Assembly (NCBI GenBank): GCA_964610875.1
Contig: CAZSWP010000029.1
Coordinates: forward strand, 1-32,399
Source: an uncultured archaeon
Lineage (GTDB): Archaea; Asgardarchaeota; Thorarchaeia; Thorarchaeales; Thorarchaeaceae
Direction: 5' to 3'
Length of the DNA: 32,399 nucleotides
In this document: piece after piece, positions 12,854 to 19,867 of the stretch
How the letters are laid out: each line of letters starts with the position of its first letter
Position numbering within the stretch: position 1 is the stretch's first letter
The notes under the pieces: generated by a model
Seen by the model: only the letters and a program-made list of their open reading frames with translations
What the model was told of the DNA's origin: nothing
The model's database searches: none
Position numbers and translations under genes: made by a program

Positions 12854-13552
12854 TCAAGTTAGCCAAGCAAGAAATCTCATTATTGGATTCGTTGATCCTT
12901 CAAGTTTGGGTCCAATGTACTGGTCTAAGCCAACATATCTTCCCGCTTGATACATACCTATTACCATGAATGCAATGGCTCCAACGAAGTTTATTCCAAA
13001 GGTTGATACACTAAGCCAACCAAGGAGGAACAGAAATGTCCACTGCATCACTACTCCACCGATTACACCAAGTCTTGTGAAGCCTCCAACAAGCATTGAT
13101 AATCCAATCAGTAGTTCGCCTACTGCAATTAGAAGTAGGAATGCTTGGTAGTTGGCAAGTAGCATTGTGAGTACAGCTTGAATCCAAGGACTTGGTGCAG
13201 AGGAGGCTCCAAATCCTATCAAACCAGGACTAGCTAAGTAAGTGGTGTCTATCAACTTAGCTATACCTCCATGAAGGAATTCGTAGGCCAATGCAAGTCG
13301 AAGTGGAAGTAACAAGCTCTTTTCAGCGAATTTTTCTGGCCAAGCCCATCTTAGTAGTATGATTGTTGGCACCAAGACAATTGGTAACACCACTAAAGGT
13401 GACATTATCAGGTCAAGGTTGGGTACTAACAAATTCTCATCGCTCAATATCCATTGTGGACCCAATGAGAGTATAGATATCACAATTAGTATGGCGTCTG
13501 TCACAAGTATGAGTATGATTGCTATCAGACTCTTTTGATTGTCAAACATCAA
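12854..13552 (-). CDS. DoxX/DoxD-family integral membrane protein
   Basis: Multiple TM helices; LRLALAYEFLHGGIAK, GELLIGL...GGFTRLG and AGRYVGLD motifs. Confidence 0.8.
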   Translation of the reverse strand: MMFDNQKSLIAIILILVTDAILIVISILSLGPQWILSDENLLVPNLDLIMSPLVVLPIVLVPTIILLRWAWPEKFAEKSLLLPLRLALAYEFLHGGIAKLIDTTYLASPGLIGFGASSAPSPWIQAVLTMLLANYQAFLLLIAVGELLIGLSMLVGGFTRLGVIGGVVMQWTFLFLLGWLSVSTFGINFVGAIAFMVIGMYQAGRYVGLDQYIGPKLEGSTNPIMRFLAWLT

Positions 13553-14901: not shown

Positions 14902-15681
14902 CTATTCAAGTATTAAAACAGCATCCACGAACAACTCATAATCTTCGTCTTCATCCAGATTCTTGATGAGTACTCTTTCTACTTCATCTTCTCCTCGTAT
15001 CTCTAGTAATCTGGATTCATAGAGTATCTTTACTGATGAGTTTTGTAATTCCTCTTTCAGTTCATCTGTTGTGATGATCTCTCTCTCAGGAGTCAGAAGA
15101 ACAACTCTATCTGTTACACTGGTAAGTTCTAAGGCCGCATCAACGGACTCATCACCTGAATGGATCACCAAGGTTCGTTTTTCTTCGAATTCATCTGTGT
15201 CCATTACAGAGTTGAAGACTCCTTTGTACATGAATTCCTCTTTTCCTATAACACAATCCGGAGACCCGTCTTCAGCATCTTCAATAGGCTCTTCAAGTTC
15301 CCCACGACCTCGTCTATAATTCTTAATAGCTTCATGTAACGCATCAGCAGCTAGATTTGAACAATGCATTTTGATAGGGGGTAGCCCATCGAGTTCTGTA
15401 GCCACATCATCTCGAGTAAGTTTGAGTGCTTCGTCCAGTGTCATTCCTTTGACCATCTCAGTTGTCATACTTGTAGTGGCTATTGCCGAGCCACATCCGA
15501 ATGTGCGGAATTTCGCATCGGTGATTCTGTCATCCTCAATTTGAATGAAGACTTCCATAATATCACCACATGTGGGGTTTCCTACCTTTCCAATGGCAAC
15601 ATTGTCACCTTCGAGAATTCCTACGTTACGTGGATTTCTGAAATGATCTAATACTTTCTCTGAATACTGTGTAGATTTCAT
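14902..15681 (-). CDS. iscU: Fe-S scaffold IscU/NifU fused to a degenerate thioredoxin-reductase-like domain
   Basis: YSEKVLDHFRNPRN, GNPTCGD, FGCGSAIA, LPPIKMHCS; extra C-terminal domain of about 120 aa. Confidence 0.92.
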   Translation of the reverse strand: MKSTQYSEKVLDHFRNPRNVGILEGDNVAIGKVGNPTCGDIMEVFIQIEDDRITDAKFRTFGCGSAIATTSMTTEMVKGMTLDEALKLTRDDVATELDGLPPIKMHCSNLAADALHEAIKNYRRGRGELEEPIEDAEDGSPDCVIGKEEFMYKGVFNSVMDTDEFEEKRTLVIHSGDESVDAALELTSVTDRVVLLTPEREIITTDELKEELQNSSVKILYESRLLEIRGEDEVERVLIKNLDEDEDYELFVDAVLILE

Positions 15682-16862
15682 TATGTCATCACCCTCTTTG
15701 GTTTATCATAAATTGGAGATAAATCTCTGAGTCTGCTTACCACTTCTGGAATGGCCTCAAGAACAATCTCTATGTCTTCGTCCGAAGTGAACCTCCCCGT
15801 TGTGATCTGGAGTGAACCATGCGCTTCTTCGTGTAGCAGTCCGGTAGCTATTAGAGTACGTGAAGGTTCAAGTGTTTTGGATGTACAAGCGGAACCTGTA
15901 GATATTGCGATTCCTCTGTCTTTGAAGGACAATAGTATCGATTCACCTTCAATGCCATCAAATCTGAAGTGAGAATTATTTGGTAATCGTTGTGTTGGAT
16001 GTCCATTTAGGTAAGAATCTGGAACTGAATTTAAGACAGTTTCAATCATGTGGTCTCTATACCTCTGCAGCCGTTTCGTTTCATCCTTCATTTCATCCCT
16101 GGCGATATCAGCAGCTGCAGCCATTCCTACTATTGCAGGTATATTTTCTGTTCCTGAGCGCAGACCTCTTTCCTGTCCACCACCCAATATTATTGGATTC
16201 GCCCTGAATCCTCTTTTCATATAGAGAATTGCTGCACCTCTTGGTCCATAGATATCATTTGATGAAAGCGTCATTAGTTTGATATGGTCTTTCTCGACAT
16301 CAATTTCCATCTGACCTTCTGCAGCTACTGCGTCTGTATGGAAAGCTATTCTCCTTTCTTCAGCAAATCTGCCAATATCCTCTACATTTTGAATCGACCC
16401 AATCTCGTTGTTGGCATAACCAATCGAGATCAATAATGTATCATCTCTTATTCTACTCTCAAGTTTCTTTAGGCTAACATGACCATACTGATCCACTGGT
16501 ACTTTTGAAACTTGAAATCCCATTCTCTGCAGGTACTTTGCTAAGTTATGAAGTGATATATGCTCAATCTCAGAGATTATCAGATGATTTCCTTTTCTTC
16601 GATTTCTTTCCATGTATCCGATGAGAGCTTGATTTATTGATTCCGTGGCTGATGATGTAAAGACTATTTCATCGGGATGTGCATTAATGAATCGTGCTAT
16701 TCGTTCTCTACTCTTCTCTAAAGCTTCCGTTGCCATATCCCCTATATTATGTAATGCTGAAGGATTTCCAAAATGCTGCCTGAAATATGGCATCATTTCT
16801 TCTAGTACCCTTGGGTCCACTGGTTTCGCTGATTGATAATCCAAATACACTCTGTCTTGCAT
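15681..16862 (-). CDS. iscS: IscS/NifS-family cysteine desulfurase homologue (PLP Lys replaced by Asp)
   Basis: VYLDY, FGNPS, IEH, ANNEIG, HTDAV, SSNDIYGPRG, RSGTEN, STGSAC. ATG at 16862 avoids overlap with the upstream gene; stop overlaps the iscU ATG. Confidence 0.92.
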   Translation of the reverse strand: MQDRVYLDYQSAKPVDPRVLEEMMPYFRQHFGNPSALHNIGDMATEALEKSRERIARFINAHPDEIVFTSSATESINQALIGYMERNRRKGNHLIISEIEHISLHNLAKYLQRMGFQVSKVPVDQYGHVSLKKLESRIRDDTLLISIGYANNEIGSIQNVEDIGRFAEERRIAFHTDAVAAEGQMEIDVEKDHIKLMTLSSNDIYGPRGAAILYMKRGFRANPIILGGGQERGLRSGTENIPAIVGMAAAADIARDEMKDETKRLQRYRDHMIETVLNSVPDSYLNGHPTQRLPNNSHFRFDGIEGESILLSFKDRGIAISTGSACTSKTLEPSRTLIATGLLHEEAHGSLQITTGRFTSDEDIEIVLEAIPEVVSRLRDLSPIYDKPKRVMT

Positions 16863-16875
16863 CTTCTTTCCCCTA

Positions 16876-17229
16876 CTAGAACCACATAGTCGCATCCGCT
16901 TCTAGTGTCAAATCATTTAGCGTAGCTGCTCCAACAATCTTCAGGTCTGGATCCAACTCGACTTTATCCCAGCCAAGCATTTGCTTTGAGGCTTCACAGA
17001 CATATACTGGTATCCCCATCTCTATCGTTTTCTTTAGCATCTCAGACAGACTTGGGAATGCCCCAATCTTTATTCTCTCACCTGCGCCTGGCTTTAAAAC
17101 TCGCAATGCCTGACCTAGATAGTAGACCTTGGCTTCAATATCCATCGCTTTTGCAGCTTGTGCTAGAACTAATGGTGAGTATTGTCTCTCTGGATCTTCA
17201 CTCGTTTGTACGTAAAGTATTGAACTCAT
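16876..17229 (-). CDS. DsrE/DsrF-like sulfur-carrier family protein
   Basis: 117 aa; VYYLGQA, GIPVYVCEAS and IVGAATL pattern of the DsrE fold; lies between tusA and iscS. Confidence 0.8.
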   Translation of the reverse strand: MSSILYVQTSEDPERQYSPLVLAQAAKAMDIEAKVYYLGQALRVLKPGAGERIKIGAFPSLSEMLKKTIEMGIPVYVCEASKQMLGWDKVELDPDLKIVGAATLNDLTLEADATMWF

Positions 17230-17239
17230 TCTATTTCGC

Positions 17240-17485
17240 CTACTGTTTTTTTATCAGAAATCTCTGAACGCCATGTTCCATGCGCTCAAACGAAATTAGT
17301 TCATGGCCGGTTCTTTTGCAAAATCGTTTGATGTCCTCTTCTGCAGCTGGGTCATCAGAGAGCATCTCTAGTACTTCTCCCATCTCTAACTCATCAATCT
17401 TCTCACGTGTTTGAAAGAGTGGTTGTGGACAATACAGTCCTGTACAATCTAGGAGTTTTGTCACTGTTTCGGTCATCTTGGTCAC
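17240..17485 (-). CDS. tusA: Sulfurtransferase TusA/SirA family
   Basis: LDCTGLYCPQP (CPxP) and GEVLEMLSDDPAAEEDI; alternative ATG at 17476. Confidence 0.92.
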   Translation of the reverse strand: MTKMTETVTKLLDCTGLYCPQPLFQTREKIDELEMGEVLEMLSDDPAAEEDIKRFCKRTGHELISFERMEHGVQRFLIKKQ

Positions 17486-17627
17486 AACTAACTATGGTTG
17501 ATTTCAAGTTTACTATAGTTAATATGCTTTATAACTCTATGGATTGCTAGAAATGAGATTGGTTGCCTCATCAGCAAGAACTTATGGAGGTTTCATTTTC
17601 TACAGAATGAATAGGGGTGGTTCTTCT

Positions 17628-19072: not shown

Positions 19073-19867
19073 CTAATCCATTGAACCTGTTTTGTATCCA
19101 TAAGAGTCAAAAGTAATATAATCGAAACCTAGACTCTTGCCTATGTCCGAAATTGAATCAAGCTTTTCTGTATCGAAAAGTAGATGTTTCTCATCATGAC
19201 CAACTTCAATTCTGACAAGGTTTCCGTGAATTCTTGCTCTTACCATTTTCACTCCAAATACAGATTGAATTATATTCTCCAATTCTTCAACAATAGCAAG
19301 CATCTCTGAAGTTATTCTAACTCCATATGGAATTCTTGTAGCTAGGCAACTCATAGAGGGTCTATGTGCAACACTTGGACACCTTTGTTGGAGGAATCCC
19401 CTAATCTCTTTCTTAGTGATATCAGCTTCAAGAAAGGGCGATCGAATATTGTTCTCTTTGAGAGCAGCTAAACCTGGTCTCTCACTATCGATATCACTAG
19501 CATTTGTACCTTCAACAATGATCTCGAAATTGTGTTGTCTTGCATATTCTGACCAGAGTTTAGCAAGTTCGCTTTTACATAGATAACACCTGTTCTTTGG
19601 ATTAGTGATAAGGCTTTCATGCTCAAGCCATTTGAATGATAGAATATCATGGTCTATCCCTAGTTCTTTGGATAGACTCTTTGCATAATCAATCTCTGTA
19701 GCACTGACCTCGCTAGCAATTGTCAGTAGCTTTACATATTCAGCTACATCAGATGCAATGATTGCTAATGCAGTACTGTCTACGCCCCCACTAAAAGCAA
19801 TTAACACTCTCTTATCTCTTAAAGCATCTCTGACCCTATCAAATTTCTTTATTGTACTATCCATCAA
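19073..19867 (-). CDS. larE: ATP-dependent sulfur transferase LarE family
   Basis: PP-loop SGGVDS; NPKNRCYLCK; EGTNASD; RPG; CLATRIPYG; C-terminal GYKTGSMD. Confidence 0.9.
   Translation of the reverse strand: MMDSTIKKFDRVRDALRDKRVLIAFSGGVDSTALAIIASDVAEYVKLLTIASEVSATEIDYAKSLSKELGIDHDILSFKWLEHESLITNPKNRCYLCKSELAKLWSEYARQHNFEIIVEGTNASDIDSERPGLAALKENNIRSPFLEADITKKEIRGFLQQRCPSVAHRPSMSCLATRIPYGVRITSEMLAIVEELENIIQSVFGVKMVRARIHGNLVRIEVGHDEKHLLFDTEKLDSISDIGKSLGFDYITFDSYGYKTGSMD

What the first reader, a model, noticed from the sequence alone, without database searches (positions are those of the whole stretch)
14902..17485. tusA-dsrE-iscS(K>D)-iscU operon: possible cysteine-independent sulfur relay into Fe-S assembly
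Seen: four genes with 10-nt and 13-nt gaps and an overlapping stop/start junction. TusA keeps CPxP and DsrE keeps a Cys (YVCEAS). Known: TusA/DsrE pairs pass persulfide or thiosulfonate sulfur in sulfur oxidisers, and in E. coli TusA receives sulfur from IscS. Inference: with an inactive IscS the flow may be reversed, with inorganic sulfur passing from DsrE/TusA to the IscS Cys and then to IscU.
Basis: inference. Interest (0 to 1): 0.75.

Follow-up and report, generated by a model that had tools for sequence, protein, structure and literature searches.

The report
Sulfur carriers beside lysine-less IscS-IscU
An Asgard archaeon encodes two small sulfur-carrier proteins (TusA, DsrE) in one tight operon with the iron-sulfur scaffold IscU and a cysteine-desulfurase look-alike that has lost its catalytic lysine. 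The carriers sat next to nearly all lysine-less relatives sampled (Archaeoglobus fulgidus included) and next to none of about 155 normal IscS genes, which gives a testable answer to where such "dead" IscS-IscU pairs get their sulfur.

Summary
On the minus strand lie tusA (17240-17485), dsrE (16876-17229), iscS (15681-16862) and iscU (14902-15681), separated by 10 nt, 13 nt and a TAATG overlap.

The IscS is the Archaeoglobus fulgidus type. It has Lys->Asp (SSND) and has also lost the equivalents of E. coli Gln183, His205 and Arg354. The mobile Cys loop is invariant.

Across 227 loci, 117 of 126 lysine-less IscS genes had tusA and/or dsrE beside them; 3 of the 9 exceptions lie at a contig edge. 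None of 101 lysine-bearing genes did, and neither did about 55 further lysine-bearing loci. A. fulgidus itself follows the rule.

The relatedness is deep. An AU test does not reject one origin for all carrier-linked lysine-less IscS, so this is a clade-wide, rearrangement-resistant linkage and not proven convergence.

A sulfur relay from the carriers to the IscS Cys and IscU is the best reading, but it is untested. "Cysteine-independent" is not required in this genome, which also holds lysine-bearing desulfurases. Archaeoglobi hold none.

I found no report of the linkage in the open literature searched. This scan has already reported the same operon type on other DNA at least seven times.

The parts
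17240..17485 (-). tusA: 81-aa sulfur carrier (GTG start; an ATG at 17476 would give 78 aa). It has the CPxP motif with Cys19 and the conserved Asp45 and Asp51.
   Evidence: Pfam TusA 1e-24 at 86.6 bits. The closest solved chains are E. coli TusA/YhhP, 1DCJ and 3LVJ. Cys19 is kept in 106/108 operon-linked homologues. NCBIfam's E. coli-type TusA equivalog scores 67.2, below its cut-off of 78.
16876..17229 (-). dsrE: 117-aa DsrE3-like sulfur carrier with active-site Cys78 (YVCEAS).
   Evidence: Pfam DsrE 3.3e-16. The best solved chain is 3MC3, S. solfataricus SSO1125, a DsrE3A according to PMC11094781, with the Cys aligned. Cys78 is kept in 83/83 homologues.
15681..16862 (-). iscS (MisS-like), 393 aa: A. 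fulgidus-type lysine-less cysteine-desulfurase homologue. It has SSND in place of SGHK and keeps Cys327 in the loop TGSAC.
   Evidence: The best PDB hit is A. fulgidus IscS2, 4EB5, at 3e-134, with the same Asn-Asp. Mapping on real E. coli IscS: Gln183->Ala, His205->Asn, Lys206->Asp, Arg354->Gln; His104, Asp180, Thr76, Ser203 and Cys328 are kept.
15310..15681 (-). iscU scaffold domain (residues 1-124 of the 259-aa product), with Cys38, Asp40, Cys63, His106 and Cys107.
   Evidence: NifU_N 3e-48; TIGR03419 at 191.9 bits, over its cut-off. Closest solved chains are 7C8M and A. fulgidus IscU, 4EB5 chain C.
14902..15249 (-). C-terminal extension of IscU: an acidic linker plus a degenerate thioredoxin-reductase NADPH-type domain (residues about 145-257). 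It has no FAD domain, no CxxC and no intact GxGxxA.
   Evidence: Pyr_redox 1.3e-4; TIGR01292 TrxR 3e-14, far below its cut-off; PDB TrxR hits at 3e-8. The fusion is present in 63 of 69 Asgard loci and in the bacterial copies, and absent from Archaeoglobus-like loci.
17486..17543 (-). Upstream intergenic region with an A/T-rich TTATAAAG box (17527-17534) 42-49 nt before the tusA start. This is a candidate archaeal TATA element, identified by eye only.
   Evidence: Sequence read. No tool here models archaeal promoters, so this is inference.

Best explanation
The four genes form one conserved module. The IscS is a catalytically dead scaffold partner of IscU, of the type crystallised from A. fulgidus. 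It cannot make a persulfide from cysteine, because the Schiff-base Lys, the PLP-contacting Gln and His, and the substrate-carboxylate Arg are all replaced. It keeps the mobile Cys loop, which in A. fulgidus ligates the [2Fe-2S] cluster on IscU. TusA and the DsrE3-like protein, each with an invariant cysteine, most plausibly carry persulfide (sulfane) sulfur to this complex. The proposed path is: DsrE picks up sulfane sulfur, passes it to TusA Cys19, and TusA hands it to IscS Cys327 (the reverse of E. coli IscS->TusA) or directly to IscU, where the cluster is built. Shown here: gene order and tight coupling, the residue states, and the clade-wide linkage. Shown in the literature for relatives: A. 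fulgidus IscS is inactive and supplies a cluster ligand; DsrE3->TusA transfer is one-way; TusA Cys19 faces IscS Cys328. Inferred: that the proteins of this operon touch, the direction of flow, and the ultimate sulfur source. That source may be polysulfide or sulfide-derived sulfane sulfur, or in Asgard genomes a separate true desulfurase.
For: The junctions of 10 nt, 13 nt and -1 nt come. All 120 closest database homologues have S-N-D. In an 80-locus sample not chosen by Lys state, 5/5 Asn-Asp loci had tusA upstream and 0/73 lysine-bearing loci had tusA or dsrE. In Asgard, 69/69 loci are lysine-less: 43 with tusA+dsrE, 22 with tusA only, 3 with dsrE only, and 1 with neither, at a contig edge. 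In Halobacteriota, 40 of 42 lysine-less loci have a carrier against 0 of 28 lysine-bearing loci. The overall tally is 117/126 against 0/101, with about 38 and about 17 further lysine-bearing loci also at 0. A. fulgidus: the IscS2 locus (matching 4EB5) has a DsrE-like ORF directly upstream, and the second copy has tusA-dsrE-iscS-iscU. Five Archaeoglobus-like genomes, A. fulgidus among them, hold no lysine-bearing IscS/NifS/SufS-type gene. A deep lysine-less branch, mainly Chloroflexota, keeps the linkage with a different order, iscS-iscU-(dsrE2-like)-tusA: 10 of 11 loci. Clade-specific loss of Gln183, His205, Lys206 and Arg354 with Cys328 at 121/121 comes. The bacterial copies (Actinomycetes, Spirochaetota; 60-61% identity) carry the whole four-gene cassette. 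In 14 Lokiarchaeal loci a CoADR/persulfide-reductase-like protein with rhodanese and TusA domains follows iscU.
Against: No experiment or structure shows contact or transfer between these proteins. Kinship confounds the counts: the tree needs only 4 changes of Lys state, only 3-4 independent contrasts exist, and the AU test does not reject one origin for all carrier-linked lysine-less IscS (p 0.418). dsrE is missing from about a third of lysine-less loci. A few have no carrier: L188, L200, L193, and this genome's own second lysine-less iscS-iscU pair on contig 11. In E. coli, TusA and IscU cannot bind IscS at the same time (PMC2854127), so a relay through a stable IscS-IscU complex would need exchange. 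This genome has lysine-bearing desulfurases that could load the carriers.
Confidence: 0.55

Rival explanations
1. The carriers are loaded from cysteine by a true desulfurase encoded elsewhere and bring that sulfur to the dead IscS-IscU scaffold. The system would be split but still cysteine-dependent.
For: This genome has a SufS-like gene with the Lys (SVHK, contig 32) and a NifS-SelD fusion with the Lys (AGHK, contig 4). All five complete Asgard genomes checked hold at least one lysine-bearing IscS/NifS/SufS-type gene. E. coli TusA is loaded by IscS (PMC2854127).
Against: Five Archaeoglobus-like genomes keep the same operon but have no lysine-bearing IscS/NifS/SufS-type gene. Their other class-V hits look like an AGXT-type aminotransferase, SepCysS and a decarboxylase. 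Lysine-bearing IscS genes were never next to tusA/dsrE in about 155 loci.
Confidence: 0.2
2. Free sulfide enters the IscS-IscU scaffold directly, as proposed for A. fulgidus. TusA and DsrE serve another sulfur-requiring pathway (thio-cofactors, tRNA thiolation, LarE-type insertion) and are only co-regulated with iscSU.
For: Sulfide as the source was the published hypothesis for A. fulgidus (summarised in PMC8918507), and sulfide feeds the SMS system (PMC13066941). A LarE sulfur transferase lies 1.6 kb away. dsrE is dispensable in many loci.
Against: The linkage is tight: overlapping or 10-13 nt junctions, the same strand, and persistence through gene-order rearrangement and transfer to bacteria. 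It is also specific to lysine-less IscS. No other sulfur-consuming enzyme is a conserved neighbour.
Confidence: 0.13
3. The module buffers or detoxifies sulfane sulfur, or senses it, and is not a biosynthetic Fe-S route.
For: Some DsrE groups are proposed to act in detoxifying reactive sulfur species (PMC11094781). A persulfide-reductase-like gene follows iscU in 14 Loki loci.
Against: IscU keeps every cluster ligand and the A. fulgidus pair assembles a [2Fe-2S] cluster (PMC13066941, PMC7585200). No regulator domain is part of the conserved core.
Confidence: 0.07
4. The linkage is inherited gene order without functional meaning (phylogenetic inertia).
For: A single origin is not rejected and only 3-4 independent contrasts exist.
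Against: The linkage survives across phyla and domains, with the order inverted and a different DsrE type in one deep branch. The carrier cysteines are invariant. The cassette moved whole into bacteria.
Confidence: 0.05

Closest known systems
Archaeoglobus fulgidus IscS2-IscU (AF0564/AF0565; PDB 4EB5, 4EB7, 4HVK; D199K variant 4R5F)
   Same: Closest solved relative (3e-134). It has the same Asn-Asp in place of His-Lys, the same retained Cys loop, and an adjacent IscU. It falls in the same monophyletic lysine-less clade (FastTree support 0.96). The A. fulgidus loci also carry dsrE (IscS2 locus) or tusA-dsrE (the other copy).
   Different: The window's IscU carries a C-terminal degenerate TrxR-like domain that is absent in A. 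fulgidus. The window has full-length tusA and dsrE, whereas the ORF upstream of AF0564 appears N-terminally short (94 aa from the first start codon) and no tusA is there. In the reviews I could read, the carriers are not part of the published A. fulgidus picture.
MIS (minimal iron-sulfur) system MisS/MisU of archaea and anaerobes
   Same: A two-gene IscS-like/IscU-like core with no HscAB, Fdx, IscA or IscR beside it, in an anaerobic archaeon that also has SufB (SMS). The review PMC13066941 describes MIS as lacking accessory components.
   Different: MIS is described with a functional desulfurase and no sulfur carriers. Here the desulfurase site is dismantled and two carriers are co-encoded.
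E. coli IscS-TusA sulfur relay (PDB 3LVJ)
   Same: Homologous proteins. TusA keeps Cys19, Asp45 and Asp51, and IscS keeps Cys328 and Ala327.
   Different: In E. coli, sulfur flows from active IscS to TusA for tRNA thiolation and Moco. Here IscS cannot generate the persulfide, so any transfer between the two must start elsewhere. The E. coli TusA-binding hot spot Trp45 is Asp here.
DsrE3-TusA relays of sulfur oxidisers (Metallosphaera cuprina DsrE3A/TusA; Hyphomicrobium DsrE3C/TusA with sHdr)
   Same: A small DsrE3-like protein with one conserved Cys next to tusA. The best solved match is the DsrE3A 3MC3.
   Different: No shdr, dsr or other sulfur-oxidation genes were seen beside the operon. 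The conserved partner is IscS-IscU instead.

Membership tests
A. fulgidus-type lysine-less IscS | Group I (IscS/NifS) class-V aminotransferase homologue | tested here: met
   Aminotran_5 8e-67; NifS/IscS models 1e-117 to 7e-137 but below the equivalog cut-offs; 4EB5 at 3e-134.
A. fulgidus-type lysine-less IscS | Asp in place of the PLP Schiff-base Lys (Af Asp199 / Ec Lys206) | tested here: met
   SSNDIYGP aligned to Af SSNDIYGP and to Ec K206.
A. fulgidus-type lysine-less IscS | Catalytic-loop Cys retained; adjacent IscU | tested here: met
   TGSAC, Cys327; iscU overlaps the stop codon.
A. fulgidus-type lysine-less IscS | No cysteine desulfurase activity; binds PMP; Cys ligates the [2Fe-2S] cluster on IscU | not testable with these tools
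   Biochemical and structural properties known only for the A. fulgidus protein (PMC8918507, PMC7585200). The loss of Gln183, His205 and Arg354 here makes inactivity likely.
TusA family | Pfam TusA domain over its cut-off with the CPxP cysteine | tested here: met
   86.6 bits against 28.6; C-P-Q-P.
E. coli-type TusA (NCBIfam NF001423 equivalog) | Score over the equivalog cut-off | tested here: not met
   67.2 bits against a cut-off of 78. It is a TusA-family member, not the E. coli equivalog.
DsrE3-type sulfur carrier | DsrE fold with the single conserved active-site Cys | tested here: met
   Pfam DsrE at 60 bits against 22.7; Cys78 aligned to the Cys of 3MC3; kept in 83/83 homologues.
DsrE3-type sulfur carrier | Placement in the DsrE3A/B/C subgroup by network or tree with reference sequences; homotrimer | not tested
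IscU scaffold | NifU_N domain with three Cys, Asp and His ligands | tested here: met
   TIGR03419 at 191.9 against 187.9; Cys38, Asp40, Cys63, His106, Cys107.
Canonical ISC system | PLP-Lys desulfurase plus HscA/HscB/Fdx/IscA/IscR in the operon | tested here: not met
   The Lys is absent. The neighbours are a GNAT, an M24 peptidase, LarE and a DoxD-like protein.
Low-Mr thioredoxin reductase (for the IscU C-terminal domain) | FAD domain, CxxC redox pair, GxGxxA NADPH motif | tested here: not met
   Only the NADPH-domain region matches (residues 145-257; TIGR01292 at 52 bits against 343). There is no FAD domain, and the motif positions read HSGDES and NSVMD.
sHdr/rDsr-linked TusA-DsrE sulfur-oxidation relay | tusA/dsrE next to shdr or dsr genes | tested here: not met
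   No such genes are among the neighbours in the window or among conserved neighbours in 57 related loci. The whole genome was not searched for them.

The most novel reading that the evidence does not exclude
The lysine-less IscS works as a 'reverse' IscS: a persulfide acceptor and relay whose loop cysteine takes sulfane sulfur from TusA. TusA would be loaded by DsrE from polysulfide or sulfide-derived S0. This would be a carrier-mediated, cysteine-independent route into Fe-S assembly that is old and widespread in anaerobic archaea, including the Asgard lineage, and would answer how the crystallised A. fulgidus IscS-IscU gets its sulfur.
Probability: 0.35. Interest if true: 0.8.

Novelty: new variant of a known kind. 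Interest (0 to 1): 0.62.

Why it matters
The A. fulgidus IscS-IscU complex has been a structural model for Fe-S assembly since 2012, yet reviews still ask how a cluster can form there without desulfurase activity (PMC8918507). The MIS system is called the least studied and is described as having no accessory factors (PMC13066941). A near-constant genomic partnership of this dead IscS type with TusA and DsrE names two concrete candidate sulfur donors. It also turns the open question into a simple in vitro transfer experiment. It would extend the known roles of TusA/DsrE relays from sulfur oxidation and tRNA/Moco thiolation to Fe-S biogenesis. It also bears on how early anaerobes and the archaeal relatives of eukaryotes fed sulfur to Fe-S scaffolds.

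Tried and rejected
1. Complex prediction with IscS (monomer, 32-row alignment) and TusA (40-row alignment) gave no verdict. In hindsight, E. coli TusA faces Cys328 of the other IscS subunit (PMC2854127), so a dimer should have been sent.

2. I tried to claim two independent origins of the link between lysine-less IscS and the carriers. The free trees separate the Asn-Asp clade from the Chloroflexota-type clade. However, the AU test does not reject one clade (delta lnL 5.1, p 0.418). Both clades share Ser104, Ala181 and loss of Arg353, and most of the second clade also shares Asn203. The claim was dropped.

3. The independent-contrast test found only 3-4 pairs, so no significance is possible.

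4. The metagenome scan seeded with P0171 returned only relatives of 50% identity or less, and every one whose motif could be read carried the lysine. These are useful as extra negative controls but not as a sample of the second clade.

5. I looked for further conserved neighbours in 57 lysine-less loci. None is universal; only lineage-specific ones appear in Lokiarchaeia.

6. I mapped the E. coli TusA-binding hot spots (W45, E49, D52, D65) on the clade. The result is inconclusive: D52 is conserved as Glu/Asp in both groups, W45 is Asp, and D65 is acidic more often than in lysine-bearing IscS.

7. Literature: eight searches found no paper describing the tusA/dsrE linkage to lysine-less IscS. 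Pagnier 2015, Yamanaka 2013 and Garcia 2022 are not held, and the TusA review by Tanabe et al. 2019 was not looked up, so prior mention there cannot be excluded.

8. The singleton Lys substitutions L053 (Leu) and L198 (Thr) keep Arg354 and His205, and L053 also keeps Gln183. They have no carriers. I treated them as recent changes or errors, not as members of the type.
Full report
**What is there.** The window is contig 29 of a 3.75-Mb Asgard archaeon genome with 124 contigs. Its closest IscS homologues are annotated as Thorarchaeota. Four co-directional ORFs lie on the minus strand: 17240-17485, 16876-17229, 15681-16862 and 14902-15681.

Pfam and NCBIfam identify them as TusA (1e-24), DsrE (3.3e-16), a NifS/IscS-type class-V aminotransferase (8e-67; NifS model 7e-137) and IscU (3e-48; TIGR03419 over its cut-off). 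The IscU carries an extra C-terminal region that weakly matches the NADPH domain of thioredoxin reductase.

**The IscS.** Its best solved relative is A. fulgidus IscS2 (4EB5, 3e-134). Both read SSNDIYGP where active enzymes have S-x-H-K.

I fetched the real E. coli IscS and aligned it with 223 sampled homologues. In the 121 sequences of the lysine-less clade:
- E. coli Lys206 is Asp in 117.
- His205 is Asn in 119.
- Gln183 is Ala in 116.
- Arg354, which holds the substrate carboxylate, is never Arg.

In all 102 lysine-bearing sequences these four positions are conserved in 100 to 102. His104, Asp180, Thr76, Ser203, Ala327 and Cys328 are kept in both groups, and Cys328 is present in 121/121 of the lysine-less clade. 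The desulfurase chemistry has therefore been dismantled as a family trait, while the mobile cysteine loop is under selection.

This matches what is published for the A. fulgidus protein. It has no desulfurase activity, binds PMP, and its Cys ligates the [2Fe-2S] cluster on IscU (PMC8918507, PMC7585200, PMC13066941).

**The linkage test.** I sampled five sets of loci.

| Sample | Lysine-less loci | Lysine-bearing loci |
|---|---|---|
| 80 loci from one-genome-per-species contigs, chosen by similarity, not by Lys state | 5 Asn-Asp loci (one Thorarchaeote, one Promethearchaeote, two Actinomycetes, one Spirochaete): all have tusA directly upstream and the IscU-TrxR-like fusion downstream; three also have dsrE | 73 loci: none has either carrier |
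| 69 Asgard loci from many families | All lysine-less: 43 tusA+dsrE, 22 tusA only, 3 dsrE only, 1 neither (contig edge) | none sampled |
| 70 Halobacteriota loci | 42 loci: 40 have a carrier | 28 loci: none has |
| Representatives of near clusters in which the Asp has changed again (Asn-Ser, Ser-Ala) | Still show tusA-dsrE-iscS-iscU | not applicable |
| Controls from a metagenome scan and from Chloroflexota | not applicable | About 55 loci: none has a carrier |

The overall tally is 117 of 126 lysine-less loci with a carrier against 0 of 101 lysine-bearing loci.

The carrier cysteines are kept in 106/108 (TusA Cys19) and 83/83 (DsrE Cys78) sequences.

**Archaeoglobus.** One sampled genome has a single 2,178,400-bp contig. 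It encodes an IscS that matches PDB 4EB5 over all 382 residues (838.7 bits), with one difference seen by eye. I take it to be A. fulgidus.

- The crystallised IscS2-IscU locus has a DsrE-like ORF ending 10 nt before iscS and no tusA. That ORF is only 94 aa from its first start codon, so it may be N-terminally short.
- The second copy, at about 165 kb, has the full tusA-dsrE-iscS-iscU set.
- In this genome and four related ones the only strong IscS/NifS/SufS-type hits are the Asn-Asp genes. By motif, the remaining class-V hits in A. fulgidus look like an AGXT-type aminotransferase, two SepCysS copies and a decarboxylase.

In these organisms the carriers therefore cannot be loaded by a conventional cysteine desulfurase.

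**How independent is the evidence?** The evidence is less independent than the counts suggest.

The Asn-Asp clade is monophyletic (FastTree support 0.96). A second lysine-less group, mainly Chloroflexota, has Lys replaced by Ala, Glu, Gln, Thr or Gly. It keeps the linkage in a different order, iscS-iscU-(a longer DsrE2-like gene)-tusA, in 10 of 11 loci.

The free trees place this group apart from the Asn-Asp clade, and the tree needs 4 changes of Lys state. However, the AU test does not reject a single clade of all lysine-less, carrier-linked sequences (p 0.418). Both groups also share Ser104, Ala181 and the lost Arg, and most of the second group shares Asn203.

The parsimonious reading is one ancient remodelling, followed by retention of the carriers through gene-order change, exchange of the DsrE type, and transfer of the whole cassette into bacteria. 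That still argues for selection on the linkage, but it is not convergence. Only 3-4 phylogenetically independent contrasts exist.

Two singleton Lys substitutions (L053, L198) keep His205 and Arg354 (L053 also Gln183) and have no carriers. The linkage thus goes with the remodelled family and not with any lost lysine.

**This genome.** "Cysteine-independent" is not forced here.
- The genome also encodes a SufS-like protein with the Lys, and a NifS-SelD fusion with the Lys.
- It encodes a second lysine-less IscS (His-Leu) with its own IscU and no carriers, and a SufS-like protein without the Lys.
- It also has SufB, a second tusA/dsrE pair and a DsrEFH-like triplet.
- All five complete Asgard genomes checked have at least one lysine-bearing homologue.

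**Mechanism.** The best-supported model is that TusA and DsrE bring persulfide sulfur to the dead IscS-IscU scaffold. The direction DsrE -> TusA is borrowed from studied DsrE3/TusA pairs, where transfer is one-way (PMC11094781). The step TusA -> IscS Cys is borrowed from the E. coli complex, where TusA Cys19 lies about 4 A from IscS Cys328 of the partner subunit (PMC2854127).

A caveat from the same paper is that E. coli TusA and IscU cannot occupy IscS together.

One supporting hint comes from 14 Lokiarchaeal loci. There the gene after iscU encodes a CoA-disulfide/persulfide-reductase-like protein fused to rhodanese and TusA domains. This ties the module to sulfane-sulfur chemistry.

A co-fold of monomeric IscS with TusA gave no verdict and is not counted either way.

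**Novelty.** The lysine-less IscS is known. I did not find the carrier linkage in eight full-text searches, and the reviews I could read treat the sulfur source of the A. fulgidus pair as open. The primary A. fulgidus papers and the MIS paper are not held, so prior mention there cannot be excluded.

Within this scan the same operon type has already been followed up on other DNA at least seven times, with the same conclusion. My tests were run before I saw those notes, and they agree.

New here, as far as those notes show:
- the mapping of four lost catalytic residues on the real E. coli sequence;
- the two A. fulgidus contexts;
- the absence of any lysine-bearing desulfurase in Archaeoglobi against its presence in Asgard genomes;
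- the rearranged second branch;
- the negative AU test, which tempers claims of independent origin.

Noticed in passing
window 14902-15249 (-): IscU is fused to a degenerate TrxR NADPH-type domain with no FAD domain, no CxxC and a broken GxGxxA. The fusion is present in 63 of 69 Asgard loci, in the Actinomycete and Spirochaete copies and in a few Halobacteriota. Archaeoglobus-like IscU lacks it. Two Halobacteriota loci (L182, L183) have a 461-aa form.
   Followed up: partly
window 19073-19867 (-): A LarE-family ATP-dependent sacrificial sulfur transferase (TIGR00268, 233 bits, over its cut-off) with CxxC and SCLATR cysteines lies 1.6 kb upstream of tusA on the same strand. It is not a conserved neighbour in other loci.
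   Followed up: partly
G000 contig 11, 80059-83010 (L003): A second lysine-less IscS (DGHLVHGP, Lys->Leu; His104 equivalent also lost) sits with a creatininase-family gene and a plain 123-aa IscU. It is preceded by a 148-aa HTH-like gene and has no tusA or dsrE. A similar small HTH gene follows iscU in the A. fulgidus IscS2 locus (L232 4117-4455).
   Followed up: partly
G000 contig 4, 101092-103368 (L002): A 758-aa fusion of a lysine-bearing NifS-like desulfurase to a long C-terminal region that looks by eye like selenophosphate synthetase (SelD). The SelD part was not scanned against a family library.
   Followed up: no
G000 contig 3, 87711-88943 (L004): A SufS-like protein in which the His-Lys position reads Asn-Ile (SGNIGLMGPPG) while the Cys (SGLLCAHP) is kept. 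This is another desulfurase look-alike without the lysine.
   Followed up: no
L141 5640-7997 and 13 other Lokiarchaeal loci: Directly after iscU lies a 786-aa protein: Pyr_redox_2 + dimerisation domain + rhodanese + TusA + rhodanese. It resembles a CoA-disulfide/persulfide reductase. G000 has only an unlinked 458-aa CoADR-like gene (contig 19) and separate rhodanese proteins.
   Followed up: partly
L010, L011, L033: Actinomycete and Spirochaete genomes carry the complete tusA-dsrE-iscS(Asn-Asp)-iscU::TrxR-like cassette at 60-61% IscS identity to the window. This suggests transfer of the cassette between archaea and bacteria.
   Followed up: partly
L193 3897-6635: A lysine-less IscS (Ser-Asp) with IscU is followed by a second Aminotran_5 gene of 400 aa instead of carriers. 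This may be a dead/active desulfurase pair.
   Followed up: no
L232 2204-2488: The DsrE-like ORF upstream of A. fulgidus IscS2 is 94 aa from its first ATG/GTG/TTG (117 codons stop to stop). It lacks the N-terminal strand present in the window's DsrE, so it may be truncated or use an unusual start.
   Followed up: no
window 12854-13552 (-): A DoxD/DoxX-family membrane protein (Pfam DoxD 5e-12) lies 1.3 kb downstream of iscU. No link to the operon was seen in other loci.
   Followed up: no
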